The notes beneath the pieces are model-generated. The model was given only the letters and a program-made list of their open reading frames with translations. It was not told the origin of the DNA and ran no database searches. Positions 5,590-8,736 of a stretch of DNA of 8,736 bases are shown one piece after another (the stretch's first letter is position 1; each line of letters opens with the position of its first letter). The stretch covers positions 1 through 8,736 of the IMG/VR virus record IMGVR_UViG_2675903654_000007; one strand, written 5' to 3'. The translations under genes were made by a program, and so were the position numbers. This DNA comes from a virus. Lineage: Duplodnaviria > Heunggongvirae > Uroviricota > Caudoviricetes.

Positions 5590-5615
<26 letters not shown>

Positions 5616-6135
5616 TCAGCAACCCCGATATCAGTTCATCCAGCGCGGCTGCTTTGTTCATGGCTTTGATGATATCCCGTTTCAGGAAATCAACATGTCG
5701 GTTTTCCAGTTCCGGAAAACGCCGCTGCACCGACAGGGGGATCCCGTCGAGAATACTGGCAATTTCACCTGCGATCCGCGACAGCACGAAAGTACAGAAT
5801 GCGGTTTCCACCACTTCAGCGGAGTCTCTGGCATTTTTCAGCTCCTGTGCGTCGGCCTGCGCACGCGTAAGTCGATGGCGTTCGTACTCAATAGTCCCTG
5901 GCTGGAGATCTGTCTCGCTGGCCTGTCGCAGTTCTTCAACCTCCCGGCGCAGCTTTTCGTTCTCAATTTCAGCATCCCTTTCGGCATACCATTTTATGAC
6001 GGCGGCAGAGTCATAAAGCACCTCATTACCCTTCCCACCGCCTCGCAGAACGGGCATTCCCTGCTCCTGCCAGTTCTGAATGGTACGGATACTCGCGCCG
6101 AAAATGTCAGCCAGCTGCTTTTTGTTGACTTCCAT
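5590..6135 (-). CDS. Nu1: Terminase small subunit gpNu1 (181 aa)
   Basis: MEVNKKQLADIFGASIRTIQNWQEQGMPVLRGGGKGNEVLYDSAAVIKWYAERD... matches the lambda Nu1 winged-HTH N-terminus; located immediately downstream of cosB. Confidence 0.95.
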
Positions 6136-6312: not shown

Positions 6313-6324
6313 AGGTCGCCGCCC
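6313..6324. other. cosN: 12-nt cohesive-end sequence (reverse complement of GGGCGGCGACCT) at the joined genome ends
   Basis: Window + strand reads cgcgAGGTCGCCGCCCcgtagc; the reverse complement is ...TACGGGGCGGCGACCTCGCGGGTTTTCGC, the canonical lambda cos junction. Confidence 0.88.
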
Positions 6325-6353: not shown

Positions 6354-6561
6354 CAATAAGTGATAATAATTATCATTTATATAAATACCATCACACATCC
6401 CACGTACACCATAAAACCACGACAAATAATCAATTTTGTCCAAGTCATGCATTAATTGATCTGTGTCAACTTAACGTAAAGACATCTTAAGACAATACAA
6501 ATCAGCAGCACTGAACACGGAAAAACACAATGTCATCAAAAAATAAAGCTTCCCAAACCAG

Positions 6562-6702
6562 ATGATTAATCAAATCCATATTGCCCTTGAACGTAAGGGA
6601 TCGGGTAATTTTTCGGCATGGGTTATTGAAGCCTGCAGGAGAAGGCTGGCAACAGATGCAAAGCACCTGCGCCCGGCCAGCATGAAAAATAACGAGAAAT
6701 GA
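6562..6702 (+). CDS. Short ORF (46 aa) with ribbon-helix-helix-like helix-loop-helix, probably an N-terminally truncated remnant
   Basis: MINQIHIALERKGSGNFSAWVIEACRRRLATDAKHLRPASMKNNEK; the G-S-G-N turn between two helices is RHH-like (Arc/MetJ/CopG). In-frame upstream codons hit TAA at 6544..6546 and the upstream ATG at 6530 is out of frame. Below the ORF-track length cutoff. Confidence 0.3.
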   Translation: MINQIHIALERKGSGNFSAWVIEACRRRLATDAKHLRPASMKNNEK

Positions 6703-6834: not shown

Positions 6835-7161
6835 TCAGGGTGCTGAAGGACTAAAGATAAATGTTTTCTTCACGCCTTTACGCGGCTTGTCCTTCTCAAA
6901 TCGCCATTTTGCCATCGCCTTTACAACCTGCTCATCAAACAGATGGTGCGGCTCTGAACGGATAAACTCAATTCGGGTGACAGTACCATCAGCACCAATA
7001 TCAAACTTCACATCAACCCGTCCCTTTATATAATTTGCCGCGGCATAGGCCGGATATTGTGGTAATGCCTTAACCAACTGTCGAGGCATATCTGTTTTAT
7101 GTTGCGTACAGCCCATAACCAAAGAAGACAACAAAATAATTAACGGAAGATTTCTTTTCAT
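6835..7161 (-). CDS. Small lipoprotein (108 aa) carrying a TonB C-terminal domain, with no TonB N-terminal anchor or proline-rich spacer
   Basis: From ATG 7161: MKRNLPLIILLSSLVMGC (signal peptide with lipobox-like VMGC), then ...LPQYPAYAAANYIKGRVDVKFDIGADGTVTRIEFIRSEPHHLFDEQVVKAMAKWRFEKDKP..., matching the TonB_C signature (E. coli TonB: [55 protein letters not shown]). A second ATG at 7176 lacks an RBS. Confidence 0.75.
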   Translation of the reverse strand: MKRNLPLIILLSSLVMGCTQHKTDMPRQLVKALPQYPAYAAANYIKGRVDVKFDIGADGTVTRIEFIRSEPHHLFDEQVVKAMAKWRFEKDKPRKGVKKTFIFSPSAP

Positions 7162-7181
7162 TCTTATTCCCGGCATAGATA

Positions 7182-7224
7182 AGAATAAGTCTTATTCTAA
7201 CAATGCAGCCCTGTCGGTCATCAA
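7182..7224 (-). promoter_or_regulatory. Candidate sigma70 promoter for the TonB_C lipoprotein gene, with an overlapping perfect palindrome (possible operator)
   Basis: On the - strand: -35 TTGATG (7219..7224), 19-nt spacer, extended -10 TGtTAGAAT (7194..7202). Palindrome AGAATAAG-T-CTTATTCT (7182..7198) overlaps the -10 and start region. Sequence-only prediction. Confidence 0.3.
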
Positions 7225-7836
7225 TCCTCTGCTTAATGGCAATGACAATTATCCGACTTAAATCACAAATCAGACACATGACATAACAGAGTTTGCGAGG
7301 TAACACATCGTCCGGTTTCTTCCACCATCGCACCGGACCAGCGACCATGAGGGGACAACGCCGCGCTCCGTTAACACGGTAAACCCCGGTGTGTATCGTT
7401 TTTGATTATCCCCGCACACTCGCGCAGAGGAGTCTCCCTCTCGGGCTGTGGTCTCTGTTGATGCGGGAATACGGCGACGATACAGTGCATAGTTATGTCA
7501 GGCTAAAATGCCTTTATCAAATCTGGGTAACGCAATCTGCCATTGTTGGCTCCGGTTGTGGTGATGATGTCAAGCAAGCCCATCTTGACTATCTCAACTA
7601 GTCGATTCATGACATATGTCACATTTATACCAACCAGATCATTGCGTTGAGTTTACAACTCAATAATTCTTGGTTGGACGTCAAGTTTTGACGGTATTCG
7701 GGTGGCAGTTGATAGCAATCTTGGAACCGTCCACCTAATAGCTGCTTGTGTGGCGTTTAAATTGTGGAGTGCTCGCAACAGAACTTTTCTTTCTTGTTTG
7801 CGAGCGATGTTTAGCAACTTTTAAGAGAGTTAAGTC

Positions 7837-8067
7837 ATGGAGTTTTTGAAAGAGCATCATTTGCCTTCAATAATTTTTGGAATTTTTTCCGCCATTTTTT
7901 GGATTATTTCATGTTTTGCATCTTCCAAAGAACACCCACCAAAAACGGAACAAGGCAGTTTCTCATCACTGGGTTGTTTTAAAGCCATTGAAATACAAAG
8001 TAAATGGAATAAACGGGCTGCTTTTTGCGCAGCGTTAGCTGTTCTTGCTCAAGTATTTAGCTTTTAG
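7837..8067 (+). CDS. Small hydrophobic protein (76 aa), two predicted membrane segments or a lipoprotein signal; accessory gene in the position of lambda bor
   Basis: ATG at 7837 preceded by AGAGAG about 9 nt upstream. MEFLKEHHLPSIIFGIFSAIFWIISCFASSKEHPPKTEQGSFSSLGCFKAIEIQSKWNKRAAFCAALAVLAQVFSF has an N-terminal hydrophobic stretch ending in IISC (lipobox-like), a basic loop and a hydrophobic C-terminus. AT-rich, opposite strand to the late genes, followed by a hairpin terminator. No similarity to Bor recognised. Confidence 0.6.
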   Translation: MEFLKEHHLPSIIFGIFSAIFWIISCFASSKEHPPKTEQGSFSSLGCFKAIEIQSKWNKRAAFCAALAVLAQVFSF

Positions 8068-8084: not shown

Positions 8085-8120
8085 AGAACCACTCGTATAG
8101 CGGGTGGTTCTCTGTTTTAT
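8085..8120 (+). terminator. Rho-independent terminator downstream of the 76-aa ORF
   Basis: AGAACCACTCG (8085..8095) pairs with CGGGTGGTTCT (8101..8111) around loop TATAG, followed by CTGTTTTATT. Confidence 0.55.
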
Positions 8121-8183: not shown

Positions 8184-8621
8184 TCATCGAAGGCATTGCG
8201 TCCTAATGTACTCCTGCAAGTAGTTAACCTGCGCGGTTATCCTGTCGATTCCACTTCGGAGACGGTAATAATTGAGTTCAGCATCTGCTGTAAGTCCTGG
8301 GGTTTCTCCATTGCCCATGCCGCTGGCTCCGGTCGTTGACTTTGCACAGGTGGCGGCGACTTGCAGGCGCTTACGCCCAGCAGAAACATCAGCACGGAGA
8401 CTTTCGATAGTCGCATTAGCATCAGCAAGCTCCTTTGTGTATCTGGCGTCAAGTTCTGCTACATCACGTTGCCGCTTCTGCATATCAGCGATGATGGATG
8501 TGGCTTTATCGCGCTGCTCTTTGTAGGCGATGGCGTTATCACGGTAATGATTAACAGCCCATGAAAGGCAGACGATGAGGCAGATGACCAGAACGTAGAT
8601 AATCGCGGTTACTCTGCTCAT
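8184..8621 (-). CDS. Rz: Spanin inner-membrane subunit Rz (i-spanin)
   Basis: From ATG 8621: [39 protein letters not shown]...[23 protein letters not shown]..., an N-terminal TM helix plus coiled coil, similar to lambda Rz. The ATG overlaps the endolysin stop (ATGA). The track start at 8633 is a GTG. Confidence 0.85.
8237..8422 (-). CDS. Rz1: Spanin outer-membrane lipoprotein subunit Rz1 (o-spanin), embedded in the +1 frame of Rz
   Basis: ATG at 8422 preceded by AAGGAG 7 nt upstream; [20 protein letters not shown] (lipobox VSAC) then proline-rich [22 protein letters not shown], the lambda Rz1 architecture, entirely inside Rz. An alternative ATG lies at 8416. Confidence 0.7.
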
Positions 8622-8736
8622 TGTTGCCCCCACAAACAGACTTCACGCTCAATCTCACGGCGAGTCATCAGCCCTTTCCATTGCTTACCGCCAGCGTATG
8701 TCCAGCGCCGTAGCTGATCACATGCGCCTTTGATAT
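8618..8736 (-). CDS. R: Endolysin, lysozyme type (not the lambda transglycosylase type), C-terminal 38 codons only
   Basis: Reverse-complement translation ends ...[36 protein letters not shown], which I recognise as the C-terminus of phage 21 / E. coli RrrD-type lysozymes; lambda R ends differently. 5' end outside window. Confidence 0.8.

What the first reader, a model, noticed from the sequence alone, without database searches (positions are those of the whole stretch)
6835..7224. Phage-encoded lipoprotein that is essentially a free TonB C-terminal domain: candidate TonB-box decoy
Seen: ORF 6835..7161 (-) encodes a lipoprotein-type signal peptide followed by a domain with the TonB_C signature (YP..A..GxVxVxFxIxxDGxV...WRF), and nothing corresponding to TonB's N-terminal membrane anchor or proline-rich spacer. 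It lies in an AT-rich island between cos and the lysis genes, with a candidate promoter overlapped by the palindrome AGAATAAG-T-CTTATTCT. Established: free periplasmic TonB C-terminal fragments act as dominant-negative inhibitors of TonB-dependent transport, and lambdoid phages carry lysogenic-conversion morons next to cos (bor, cor-type exclusion genes). Inference: an envelope-anchored TonB-CTD could occupy the TonB boxes of outer-membrane receptors such as FhuA, BtuB or FepA, excluding TonB-dependent phages and colicins or modulating iron uptake. I am not aware of this as a described exclusion mechanism.
Basis: partly seen in the sequence, partly recalled or inferred. Interest (0 to 1): 0.8.

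Follow-up and report, generated by a model that had tools for sequence, protein, structure and literature searches.

The report
Prophage lipoprotein mimicking TonB's C-terminus
A prophage gene present in about 30% of complete E. coli genomes encodes an outer-membrane-anchored copy of only the receptor-gripping end of TonB; it probably grips nutrient receptors without powering them, but nobody appears to have tested what it does.

Summary
ORF 6835-7161(-) encodes a 108-aa lipoprotein precursor (lipobox VMGC, +2 Thr). Its mature part is a TonB C-terminal domain: Pfam TonB_C E=2.7e-15, and the AF2 model lies 1.0 A from TonB in the BtuB:TonB complex. It has no membrane anchor and no proline-rich rod. 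It sits in an AT-rich island between Rz/Rz1 and an exact lambda cosN.

It is not a tonB fragment. It belongs to a distinct paralog family of about 110-aa lipoproteins under purifying selection (dN/dS 0.13). The gene occurs in 1,618 of 5,426 complete E. coli genomes. Divergent phages of Klebsiella and Rahnella carry it in the same post-lysis position. Pantoea, Erwinia, Raoultella and Enterobacter carry it as a lone chromosomal gene.

New here: 9 of 9 of those chromosomal genes have near-consensus Fur boxes 26-48 nt upstream of the start codon.

The decoy idea (uncoupled binding of TonB boxes) remains the most economical mechanism, but it is untested. TonB R158, Q160 and R166 are not conserved, and iron-starvation induction of relatives fits a pure inhibitor awkwardly. 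Ten literature searches found no functional study. Verdict: real, widespread, uncharacterised and directly testable.

The parts
6835..7161 (-). CDS of the 108-aa TonB_C lipoprotein precursor, stop codon included
   Evidence: ORF list and sequence. PGAP annotates the same CDS as 'TonB family protein'. Pfam TonB_C E=2.7e-15. dN/dS is 0.13 against the phage 21 allele. All 80 IMG/VR copies are intact.
7108..7161 (-). Signal peptide with lipobox LVMG-C18. [quoted passage not shown]
   Evidence: Read from the sequence. 27 of 32 family members match my lipobox pattern, all with a non-Asp +2 residue; one more (P0195, LNAC) I read by eye as a lipobox. Localisation is inferred from the +2 rule, not shown.
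6850..7083 (-). TonB C-terminal domain, residues 27-104. Strand beta3 is residues 94-103, and the protein ends 5 residues later, so it lacks TonB's last 8 residues
   Evidence: AF2 secondary structure and pLDDT. Foldseek rmsd 1.0 A to 2gsk_B. Residue map to TonB 153-231.
7167..7171 (-). Shine-Dalgarno GGGAA, 5 nt before the ATG
   Evidence: Read. Conserved as AGGAA in the type B allele.
7194..7202 (-). Candidate extended -10 element TGtTAGAAT. A weak -35 (ATGACC) lies at 7216-7221
   Evidence: Consensus scan. ATTGTYAGAATAAGAC is invariant between the type A and type B loci, while the sequence around it has diverged. No transcription evidence.
7182..7198 (.). Perfect 8-1-8 palindrome AGAATAAG-T-CTTATTCT overlapping the -10. 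It lies where chromosomal relatives carry Fur boxes
   Evidence: present in 74 of 80 type A copies. Matches the 19-bp Fur consensus at 13/19 (p~0.02) but the 7-1-7 core at only 9/14. Absent from type B because of a 13-nt indel.
6313..6324 (-). cosN, an exact lambda cohesive-end sequence. It fixes the gene at the right end of the mature genome
8184..8633 (-). Rz i-spanin with Rz1 o-spanin embedded at about 8237-8419. This is the end of the lysis cassette upstream of the island
   Evidence: Pfam Phage_lysis 1.1e-34. Pfam Rz1 2.3e-20.

Best explanation
The gene encodes an outer-membrane lipoprotein whose only folded part is a TonB C-terminal domain, held by a tether of about 8 residues under the outer membrane.

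Shown here: identity, fold, export signal, purifying selection, and membership of a conserved paralog family.

Inferred: like TonB's own C-terminal domain, it pairs its exposed edge strand beta3 (residues 94-103) with the TonB box of TonB-dependent transporters, and possibly with the TonB boxes of incoming group B colicins, by beta-augmentation. Because it has no transmembrane helix, no ExbB/ExbD contact and no proline-rich rod, it cannot transmit force. Binding therefore competes with real TonB. The result would be a brake or shield on TonB-dependent entry of phages such as T1 and phi80, of colicins B, D, Ia and M, and of siderophore-microcins, at some cost to siderophore and B12 uptake.

Chromosomal relatives are predicted to be Fur-repressed, so they would be made when transporters are derepressed. 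The prophage copies have largely lost the Fur box. They are probably expressed from a conserved extended -10 promoter and by read-through of the Q-antiterminated late transcript.
For: - Fold and sequence: TonB_C E=2.7e-15. rmsd is 1.0 A to TonB as bound to BtuB and to FhuA. The six aromatic residues Y163, F180, F202, W213, Y215 and F230 are kept as Y36, F53, F75, W86, F88 and F103.
- The TonB box binds in parallel to beta3, and its activity depends more on secondary structure than on side chains (PMC11658791).
- The protein stops just after beta3, so that edge is not covered by a C-terminal tail.
- Lipobox with a non-Asp +2 residue in 27 of 32 family members by pattern, plus one by eye. The Serratia clade instead has a plain Sec signal. 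From my own knowledge, that is the architecture of the inhibitory laboratory constructs.
- Overexpressed periplasmic TonB domain inhibits iron import through TonB-dependent transporters (PMC9841981 citing Howard 2001).
- Precedent for outer-membrane lipoproteins that act on a transporter from the periplasmic side: Llp and Cor on FhuA.
- A link to the TonB system: 9 of 9 chromosomal relatives have Fur boxes scoring 11-14 of 14, 26-48 nt upstream of the start codon.
- Selection and spread: dN/dS 0.13; 1,618 of 5,426 E. coli genomes; the same post-lysis position in three phage lineages that share only about 35-41% identity.
Against: - No binding or phenotype data exist, and none could be generated here.
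- TonB R158, Q160 and R166, which by my recollection of the 2GSK and 2GRX structure papers and the suppressor genetics lie near the TonB box and FhuA Glu56, are K31, L33 and Y39. Tyr39 is invariant in the family, which suggests a shifted specificity.
- Induction of relatives by iron starvation is paradoxical for a pure inhibitor of iron uptake.
- From my own knowledge, transporters outnumber TonB many-fold when derepressed, so saturating them would need high expression.
- Carrier phages examined (phage 21, an ST131 prophage) have lambda-family J tips and no cor, so there is no sign of self-exclusion logic.
- No PADLOC defence model matches.
- The promoter is only a consensus match.
Confidence: 0.4

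Rival explanations
1. It is a positive or accessory factor of iron acquisition rather than an inhibitor. The outer-membrane-tethered TonB_C domain would bind something other than a transporter's TonB box, such as a periplasmic binding protein, an imported protein substrate or the ExbD periplasmic domain. It would organise uptake under iron starvation, and the phage copy would then be a fitness moron.
For: - Strong Fur boxes upstream of 9 of 9 chromosomal members, which are lone genes in ordinary neighbourhoods.
- A TonB-like C-terminal domain can bind a non-TonB-box ligand: FusB binds ferredoxin directly (PDB 9hi3; abstract of PMC7593965).
- The family-invariant Tyr at the TonB R166 position points to a family-specific surface.
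- Phage 21 also carries the iron/manganese importer sitABCD.
Against: - No partner is encoded next to the gene in any context seen.
- Phage alleles have mostly lost the Fur box.
- The sit linkage is not general: the ST131 prophage has none.
- The domain is closest to the enterobacterial TonB CTD, whose known ligand is the TonB box.
Confidence: 0.25
2. It is a lysogenic-conversion envelope lipoprotein in the manner of Bor/Iss or Lom. It would affect host interaction (serum resistance, adhesion, envelope robustness) and have no connection to TonB-box binding.
For: - It is an AT-rich moron beside the lysis genes. In phage 21 and strain 3385 it sits next to bor/iss.
- It is common in EPEC, EHEC and ST131 genomes.
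Against: - The fold is unambiguously TonB_C, and relatives carry Fur boxes.
- Homologues occur in plant- and insect-associated Erwiniaceae, where a role in serum resistance seems unlikely.
Confidence: 0.1
3. It is a lysis-cassette accessory, as PHROGs suggests by labelling the family 'Rz-like spanin'.
For: - phrog_1267 'Rz-like spanin', E=3.4e-42 over the full length.
- The gene always lies just downstream of the lysis genes and is co-oriented with them, in E. coli, Klebsiella and Rahnella phages.
- It is an outer-membrane lipoprotein, as an o-spanin is.
Against: - The window already encodes Rz and Rz1.
- The protein has no C-terminal transmembrane domain, so it is not a u-spanin. It is globular rather than short and Pro-rich.
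- From my own knowledge, lambda itself lacks this gene, so it is not needed for lambdoid lysis.
- Family members lie outside prophages.
Confidence: 0.05
4. It is a functionless remnant of a captured tonB gene, as some records annotate it ('TonB fragment', 'partial tonB-like').
For: - Record annotations.
- Frameshifted C-terminal variants are common among type B copies. One 112-aa variant cluster holds 130 sequences.
Against: - It has its own lipoprotein signal.
- dN/dS is 0.13 across alleles that are 70% identical.
- All 80 type A copies examined are intact.
- It scores 106.5 bits against a family HMM built without the E. coli alleles, versus 77.2 bits against an enterobacterial TonB-CTD HMM.
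- Architecture and length are conserved across genera.
Confidence: 0.05

Closest known systems
C-terminal domain of E. coli TonB (PDB 1U07; 2GSK with BtuB; 2GRX with FhuA)
   Same: - Same fold (rmsd 1.0-1.1 A).
- 40.5% identity, ungapped, over TonB 153-231.
- The YP motif and all six aromatic residues are kept.
- Basic pI (9.8 vs 10.4).

   Different: - No N-terminal transmembrane helix and no Pro-rich rod; a lipoprotein anchor instead.
- Ends right after beta3, without TonB residues 232-239.
- R158, Q160 and R166 are replaced by K, L and Y.
- It forms its own paralog family.
Engineered periplasmic TonB fragments (Howard et al. 2001, as cited in PMC9841981)
   Same: An exported TonB C-terminal part with no energy coupling. 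Those constructs inhibit iron import through TonB-dependent transporters. The Serratia relatives even have a plain Sec signal, which by my own knowledge is how those constructs were exported.
   Different: - This is a natural gene.
- It is lipid-anchored to the outer membrane.
- It has diverged from TonB.
- Its phenotype is untested. The original paper could not be read.
Superinfection-exclusion lipoproteins Cor (phi80, N15) and Llp (T5)
   Same: Small phage-encoded lipoproteins of the inner leaflet of the outer membrane. They act on a TonB-dependent transporter (FhuA) from the periplasmic side.
   Different: - Different fold. The model finds TonB structures in the PDB and nothing in the viral structure library BFVD, where the Llp authors report many Llp-like hits.
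- Llp works allosterically on the plug, not on the TonB box.
- Cor and Llp match the carrier phage's own receptor. No such match was found here.
Bor/Iss lipoprotein moron of lambda and phage 21
   Same: A small outer-membrane lipoprotein gene in the AT-rich stretch between Rz and cos. The two are adjacent in phage 21.
   Different: Bor is transcribed against the late operon, whereas this gene runs with it. The folds are unrelated. From my own knowledge, Bor's known phenotype is serum resistance.
Other non-canonical TonB_C proteins: the paralogs HasB and FusB, TonB-dependent transporters with an N-terminal TonB_C domain (NCBIfam MxcH), and secreted proteins of 2-5 tandem TonB_C domains
   Same: The TonB_C domain is reused outside the standard TonB. 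MxcH-type transporters place a TonB_C domain at the outer membrane. Tandem-repeat proteins with signal peptides lack anchors and rods.
   Different: HasB and FusB are still inner-membrane energy transducers. I know of no function for the fused and tandem forms. None of these is a single-domain lipoprotein, and none is phage-borne.

Membership tests
Pfam TonB_C (PF03544) domain family | HMM score above the gathering threshold | tested here: met
   57 bits against a cut-off of 24.6, E=2.7e-15. TIGR01352 scores 56.9 against 27.1.
Pfam TonB_C (PF03544) domain family | TonB-CTD fold: a three-stranded sheet packed against two helices | tested here: met
   AF2 mean pLDDT 86. Foldseek finds 1u07, 2gsk_B and 2grx_C at rmsd 1.0-1.1 A, with TM-score normalised to the target of 0.88-0.94.
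Pfam TonB_C (PF03544) domain family | Binds TonB boxes by beta-augmentation on beta3 | not testable with these tools
   Beta3 is present and is the last element.
TonB energy transducer (NCBIfam TonB equivalogs) | N-terminal transmembrane helix that couples to ExbB/ExbD | tested here: not met
   The N-terminus is a cleavable lipoprotein signal. Equivalog models match only their C-terminal ~80 positions.
TonB energy transducer (NCBIfam TonB equivalogs) | Proline-rich periplasm-spanning spacer, and a whole-protein score above the cut-off | tested here: not met
   Only about 8 residues separate Cys18 from the domain. Scores are 50-74 bits against cut-offs of 265-448.
Short lipoprotein TonB_C paralog family (defined here) | About 105-130 aa, lipobox, a 14-23 residue tether to the PxYP motif, and the motifs SEPxHLFD and KWRFE..KP | tested here: met
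   Alignments A2, A3 and A5. Lipobox statistics. Family HMM 106.5 bits versus TonB-CTD HMM 77.2 bits.
Fur regulon | A Fur box (GATAATGATAATCATTATC, or 7-1-7 TGATAATnATTATCA) in the promoter | tested here: inconclusive
   Window: 13/19 (p~0.02) but only 9/14 on the 7-1-7 core. Nine chromosomal relatives: 11-14 of 14, each p<=0.011. Type B allele: none. Binding was not tested.
Cor/Llp exclusion lipoproteins | Outer-membrane lipoprotein signal | tested here: met
   Lipobox VMGC with Thr at +2.
Cor/Llp exclusion lipoproteins | Llp/Cor fold | tested here: not met
   Top PDB matches are all TonB C-terminal domains, and no Llp entry appears in the list. There is no BFVD hit at E<0.001.
Cor/Llp exclusion lipoproteins | Blocks infection through the receptor of the carrier phage | not testable with these tools
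   In phage 21 and the ST131 prophage no cor gene is annotated near J. Phage 21's J tip is 51% identical to lambda's; the ST131 J tip was not compared.
Spanins (PHROG phrog_1267 label) | An i-spanin transmembrane domain with coiled coil, or a short Pro-rich o-spanin, or a u-spanin with a C-terminal transmembrane domain | tested here: not met
   The domain is globular TonB_C and the C-terminus is ...FIFSPSAP. The window has its own Rz and Rz1.
Lambdoid moron | Variable presence, deviant base composition, own promoter and terminator | tested here: inconclusive
   Variable presence: the flanking ~190-nt module occurs in 4,140 genomes and the gene in 1,618. GC is 0.41-0.43. There is a conserved extended -10. 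No terminator-like site was found downstream.

The most novel reading that the evidence does not exclude
This would be a natural, widespread TonB-box decoy. An outer-membrane-tethered, force-uncoupled TonB C-terminal domain would capture the TonB boxes of transporters, and of incoming colicins as they emerge under the outer membrane. That would give lysogens broad tolerance to TonB-dependent phages, group B colicins and siderophore-microcins. Chromosomal relatives in Erwiniaceae would deploy the same shield under Fur control, exactly when their receptors are derepressed. It would be a new class of exclusion or tolerance mechanism, aimed at the energy-coupling step rather than at a single receptor.
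Probability: 0.3. Interest if true: 0.8.

Novelty: new variant of a known kind. Interest (0 to 1): 0.6.

Why it matters
TonB-dependent transporters are the gateways for siderophores, vitamin B12, many phages, group B colicins, siderophore-microcins and 'Trojan horse' antibiotics.

A natural protein that jams the TonB-box handshake would be a single-gene, receptor-independent way to change sensitivity to all of these. It is carried by prophages in about 30% of complete E. coli genomes, including EPEC, EHEC and ST131 strains. That bears on phage-therapy host range, on bacteriocin-based competition in the iron-poor inflamed gut, and on uptake of siderophore-antibiotic conjugates.

If the protein instead helps iron uptake, it reveals an unknown outer-membrane component of the Ton system in Enterobacterales. 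Either way, the predicted Fur control of the chromosomal family gives a concrete experimental handle.

Tried and rejected
- Self-exclusion logic. I asked whether carrier phages use a TonB-dependent receptor or carry cor. Phage 21 has a J tip 51% identical to lambda's and close to those of many Stx phages. Neither phage 21 nor the ST131 prophage has an annotated cor. Two other type A prophages are tail-less remnants. No link was found, but the sampling was not systematic.
- sitABCD linkage. Phage 21 carries sitABCD but the ST131 prophage does not. I treat it as an anecdote.
- Serratia colicin adjacency. A homologue sits beside a pore-forming colicin and its immunity gene. However, the colicin's N-terminal domain matches Pfam ColA_N and resembles colicin A as I recall it, so it is probably Tol-dependent. 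Other Serratia strains hold a SIR2 gene at that spot. The adjacency is probably a variable hotspot and not a functional pairing.
- Upstream ~190-nt element as a leader RNA of this gene. It is an independent module found in 4,140 genomes. The consensus fold has only 2 compensatory pairs, and single-sequence folding gives z=-1.6 on both strands. Rfam finds nothing.
- Defence-system and viral-structure libraries. PADLOC gives no hit and BFVD gives no hit.
- Spanin reading from PHROGs. Rejected on anatomy.
- Literature. Ten full-text searches and a 2024 review of superinfection exclusion yielded no functional study. Howard 2001 (PMC99666) is not held.
- Loci search. The first attempt with a too-diverse alignment failed. 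A narrower alignment worked.
Full report
CHECK OF THE OBSERVATION

The window is the late region of a lambda-type prophage, read on the minus strand. In order it holds Rz (8184-8633) with Rz1 embedded, an AT-rich island, an exact lambda cosN (6313-6324), Nu1 (5590-6135), terminase A, W, the portal gene B and the protease gene C.

Inside the island, ORF 6835-7161(-) encodes 108 residues. The start at 7161 has a GGGAA Shine-Dalgarno 5 nt upstream, and PGAP uses the same start in identical prophages, for example WP_000828067.1 in EPEC E2348/69. The N-terminus MKRNLPLIILLSSLVMG-C is a lipoprotein signal with Thr at +2.

The rest of the protein is a TonB C-terminal domain:
- Pfam TonB_C scores 57 bits against a cut-off of 24.6.
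- Full-length TonB models match only at their C-terminal ~80 positions and far below their cut-offs.
- The protein aligns without gaps to E. coli TonB 153-231 at 40.5% identity.
- The AF2 model is confident. Its best solved-structure matches are TonB CTDs, including TonB as bound to BtuB and to FhuA, at rmsd 1.0-1.1 A.

GC is 0.36-0.44 in the island against 0.53-0.55 in the packaging genes. The palindrome at 7182-7198 is exact and overlaps a TG-extended TAGAAT -10 element.

Four qualifications apply:
- The region holds no more promoter-like sites than shuffled sequence does.
- The right arm of the palindrome lies in a 13-nt insertion found only in this allele.
- The gene runs with the late operon.
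- From my own knowledge, cor genes are not cos-proximal.

IS IT A REAL GENE?

Two alleles circulate in E. coli. Type A is the one in this window. Type B is the phage 21 allele, 70% identical in protein.
- Between the two alleles dN/dS is 0.13. dS is about 1.5, which is near saturation.
- All 80 type A copies fetched from IMG/VR are intact. They make only eight protein variants.
- A blastn search finds the gene in 1,618 of 5,426 complete E. coli genomes: about 416 carry type A and about 1,200 carry type B. Carriers include O157:H7, O111, E2348/69, ST131 and NC101.
- Fifteen deposited phage genomes carry it. Their labels range from 'TonB C-terminal domain protein' (phage 21) to 'TonB fragment' and 'partial tonB-like membrane protein'.
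- Some type B copies are frameshifted at the C-terminus, so decay does occur.

WHAT FAMILY IS IT?

An exhaustive profile search shows that the nearest full-length relatives are proteins of about 105-130 aa with the same layout.
- 27 of 32 members match my lipobox pattern, all with a non-Asp +2 residue, and one more looks like a lipoprotein by eye. A Serratia clade has an ordinary Sec signal.
- They share the motifs SEPxHLFD and KWRFE..KP. These differ from the AKPANMFE and RRWRYEPGKP of TonB.
- An HMM of the family, built without the E. coli alleles, scores the window protein at 106.5 bits. An HMM of enterobacterial TonB CTDs gives 77.2 bits. E. coli TonB behaves the opposite way, at 82 and 164 bits.

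The protein is therefore a member of a distinct paralog family, sister to the enterobacterial TonB CTD. It is not a recently captured fragment of tonB.

WHERE THE FAMILY LIVES

In phages the gene always lies just after the lysis cassette and before the terminase genes or cos, co-oriented with the late genes. This holds for E. coli lambdoids, Klebsiella phage ST13-OXA48phi12.4 (41% identity) and a Rahnella prophage (36%).

In Pantoea, Erwinia, Raoultella, Enterobacter and Serratia it is a lone chromosomal gene among unrelated metabolic genes.

A REGULATORY CLUE

Nine of nine chromosomal genes from Pantoea, Erwinia, Raoultella and Enterobacter have a near-consensus Fur box 26-48 nt upstream of the start codon.
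- Matches to the 7-1-7 core TGATAATnATTATCA are 11-14 of 14. Enterobacter has TGATAATTATTATCA, and Erwinia and Raoultella are one base off.
- Each site reaches p<=0.011 against 4,850 background windows.

These genes are therefore predicted members of the Fur regulon. They would be co-induced with tonB and the transporters under iron starvation.

The phage copies differ. The window's palindrome lies at the equivalent place and matches 13/19 of the long consensus, but only 9/14 of the core. The Klebsiella phage copy is marginal. Type B and the Rahnella copy have nothing. What type A and type B do share, amid otherwise diverged sequence, is ATTGTYAGAATAAGAC, which is the extended -10.

My reading is that phages took a Fur-controlled host gene and rewired its expression. 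This is inference; no transcription data were available.

HOW IT MOST LIKELY WORKS

Shown: the fold, the export signal, the absence of all energy-coupling parts, and an edge strand beta3 (residues 94-103) followed by only five more residues.

Established by others:
- TonB boxes pair in parallel with beta3 of TonB, and what matters is mainly secondary structure (PMC11658791).
- Overproduced periplasmic TonB domain inhibits import through TonB-dependent transporters (PMC9841981 citing Howard 2001).
- Phage lipoproteins of the inner leaflet of the outer membrane can control a transporter from below, as Llp and Cor do on FhuA.

Inferred: the mature lipoprotein sits within a few nanometres of the periplasmic rim of the transporters. 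It binds their TonB boxes, or those of colicins as they enter. Because it cannot pull, it competes with TonB. I put this at about 0.4.

Points against:
- TonB R158, Q160 and R166 become K, L and Y, with the Tyr invariant in the family.
- Induction of relatives by iron starvation is odd for a pure inhibitor of iron uptake.
- Stoichiometry is unfavourable unless the real target is the few incoming colicin or phage molecules.
- The carrier phages examined show no cor gene or FhuA-type tip.

RIVALS

- An accessory, positive role in iron uptake through a different ligand, about 0.25. This fits the Fur boxes, and FusB shows that a TonB-like CTD can bind a protein substrate.
- A Bor-like envelope or virulence lipoprotein, about 0.1.
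- A lysis accessory, as PHROGs labels the family ('Rz-like spanin'), about 0.05. The window has its own Rz and Rz1, the protein has no spanin anatomy, and relatives lie outside prophages.
- A dead fragment, about 0.05. Selection and family conservation contradict this.

COMPARISON WITH WHAT IS KNOWN, AND NOVELTY

The domain is a bona fide TonB_C. The protein fails every other defining feature of TonB, and it fails the fold test for Cor/Llp and the anatomy test for spanins (see the membership table).

Uncoupled TonB_C proteins are not rare. The profile search also brings up secreted proteins made of 2-5 tandem TonB_C domains, and NCBIfam knows transporters with an N-terminal TonB_C domain. I know of no assigned function for any of them.

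Ten full-text searches and a 2024 review of superinfection exclusion gave no study of this gene or of a TonB-mimic exclusion mechanism. The library lacks most subscription journals, so absence of a paper is not proven.

I class the finding as a new variant of a known kind. It is a prophage outer-membrane lipoprotein moron aimed at the TonB-dependent uptake machinery, with a fold and a presumed target site different from Cor and Llp.

VERDICT

The gene is real, widespread and uncharacterised. The decoy hypothesis is plausible and cheap to test. The predicted Fur control of the chromosomal relatives is a new lead that any model must accommodate.

Noticed in passing
window 7300-7495 (-): An unannotated ~190-nt element lies just upstream of the TonB_C gene. 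It is better conserved between the type A and type B loci (roughly 88-90%, my estimate from the alignment) than the coding sequence is (~73%). It occurs at 11,120 places in 4,140 of 5,426 E. coli genomes, between the lysis cassette and ylcI/cos, whether or not TonB_C is present. The consensus fold has 45 pairs but only 2 are compensatory. Single-sequence folding gives z=-1.6 on both strands, and Rfam finds nothing. Its function is unknown.
   Followed up: partly
window 6361-6375: A perfect 7-1-7 Fur-box consensus, TGATAATAATTATCA, lies 37 nt upstream of cosN, next to GGGTCCTTTCC (the cosQ area). Chance expectation is 0.01 per window. The same site occurs at the same distance from cosN in E2348/69 and 2013C-3264, and with a different central base in the DLP12 prophage of E. 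coli B. Phage 21 has a 12/14 version. I do not know whether Fur or a packaging protein binds it.
   Followed up: partly
window 7837-8067 (+), terminator-like hairpin 8085-8111: A second moron-like gene runs against the late operon, as bor does. It encodes a 76-aa protein with two hydrophobic segments by eye (PGAP 'hypothetical protein' WP_157778920.1; phrog_14357, unknown function), followed by a 12-bp-stem terminator-like hairpin.
   Followed up: no
L007, L008, L009: 7001-9510 (Serratia): A Sec-exported, non-lipoprotein TonB_C homologue sits directly beside a pore-forming colicin and its immunity gene. As I recall those proteins, the colicin has a colicin A-like N-terminus and a colicin Ia-like pore domain. 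In other Serratia strains the same spot holds a SIR2-domain gene, so this looks like a variable competition/defence hotspot.
   Followed up: partly
L017: 8468-10501 (phage 21): Phage 21 carries sitBCD genes, and probably the whole sitABCD Fe/Mn ABC importer, as a moron downstream of its tail-fibre genes, together with bor and the TonB_C gene. The ST131 prophage with the same TonB_C allele has no sit genes.
   Followed up: partly
proteins P0034 and P0037 (not in the window): Secreted proteins of 481-513 aa made of five tandem TonB_C domains, and many others with 2-4 domains, rank among the closest relatives in the exhaustive search. I know of no characterised function for this class of uncoupled TonB_C proteins.
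   Followed up: no
window 6562-6702 (+): A DUF3950 (YlcI/YnfO family) small gene converges on the TonB_C gene. It is the usual neighbour of cos in lambdoid prophages.
   Followed up: no
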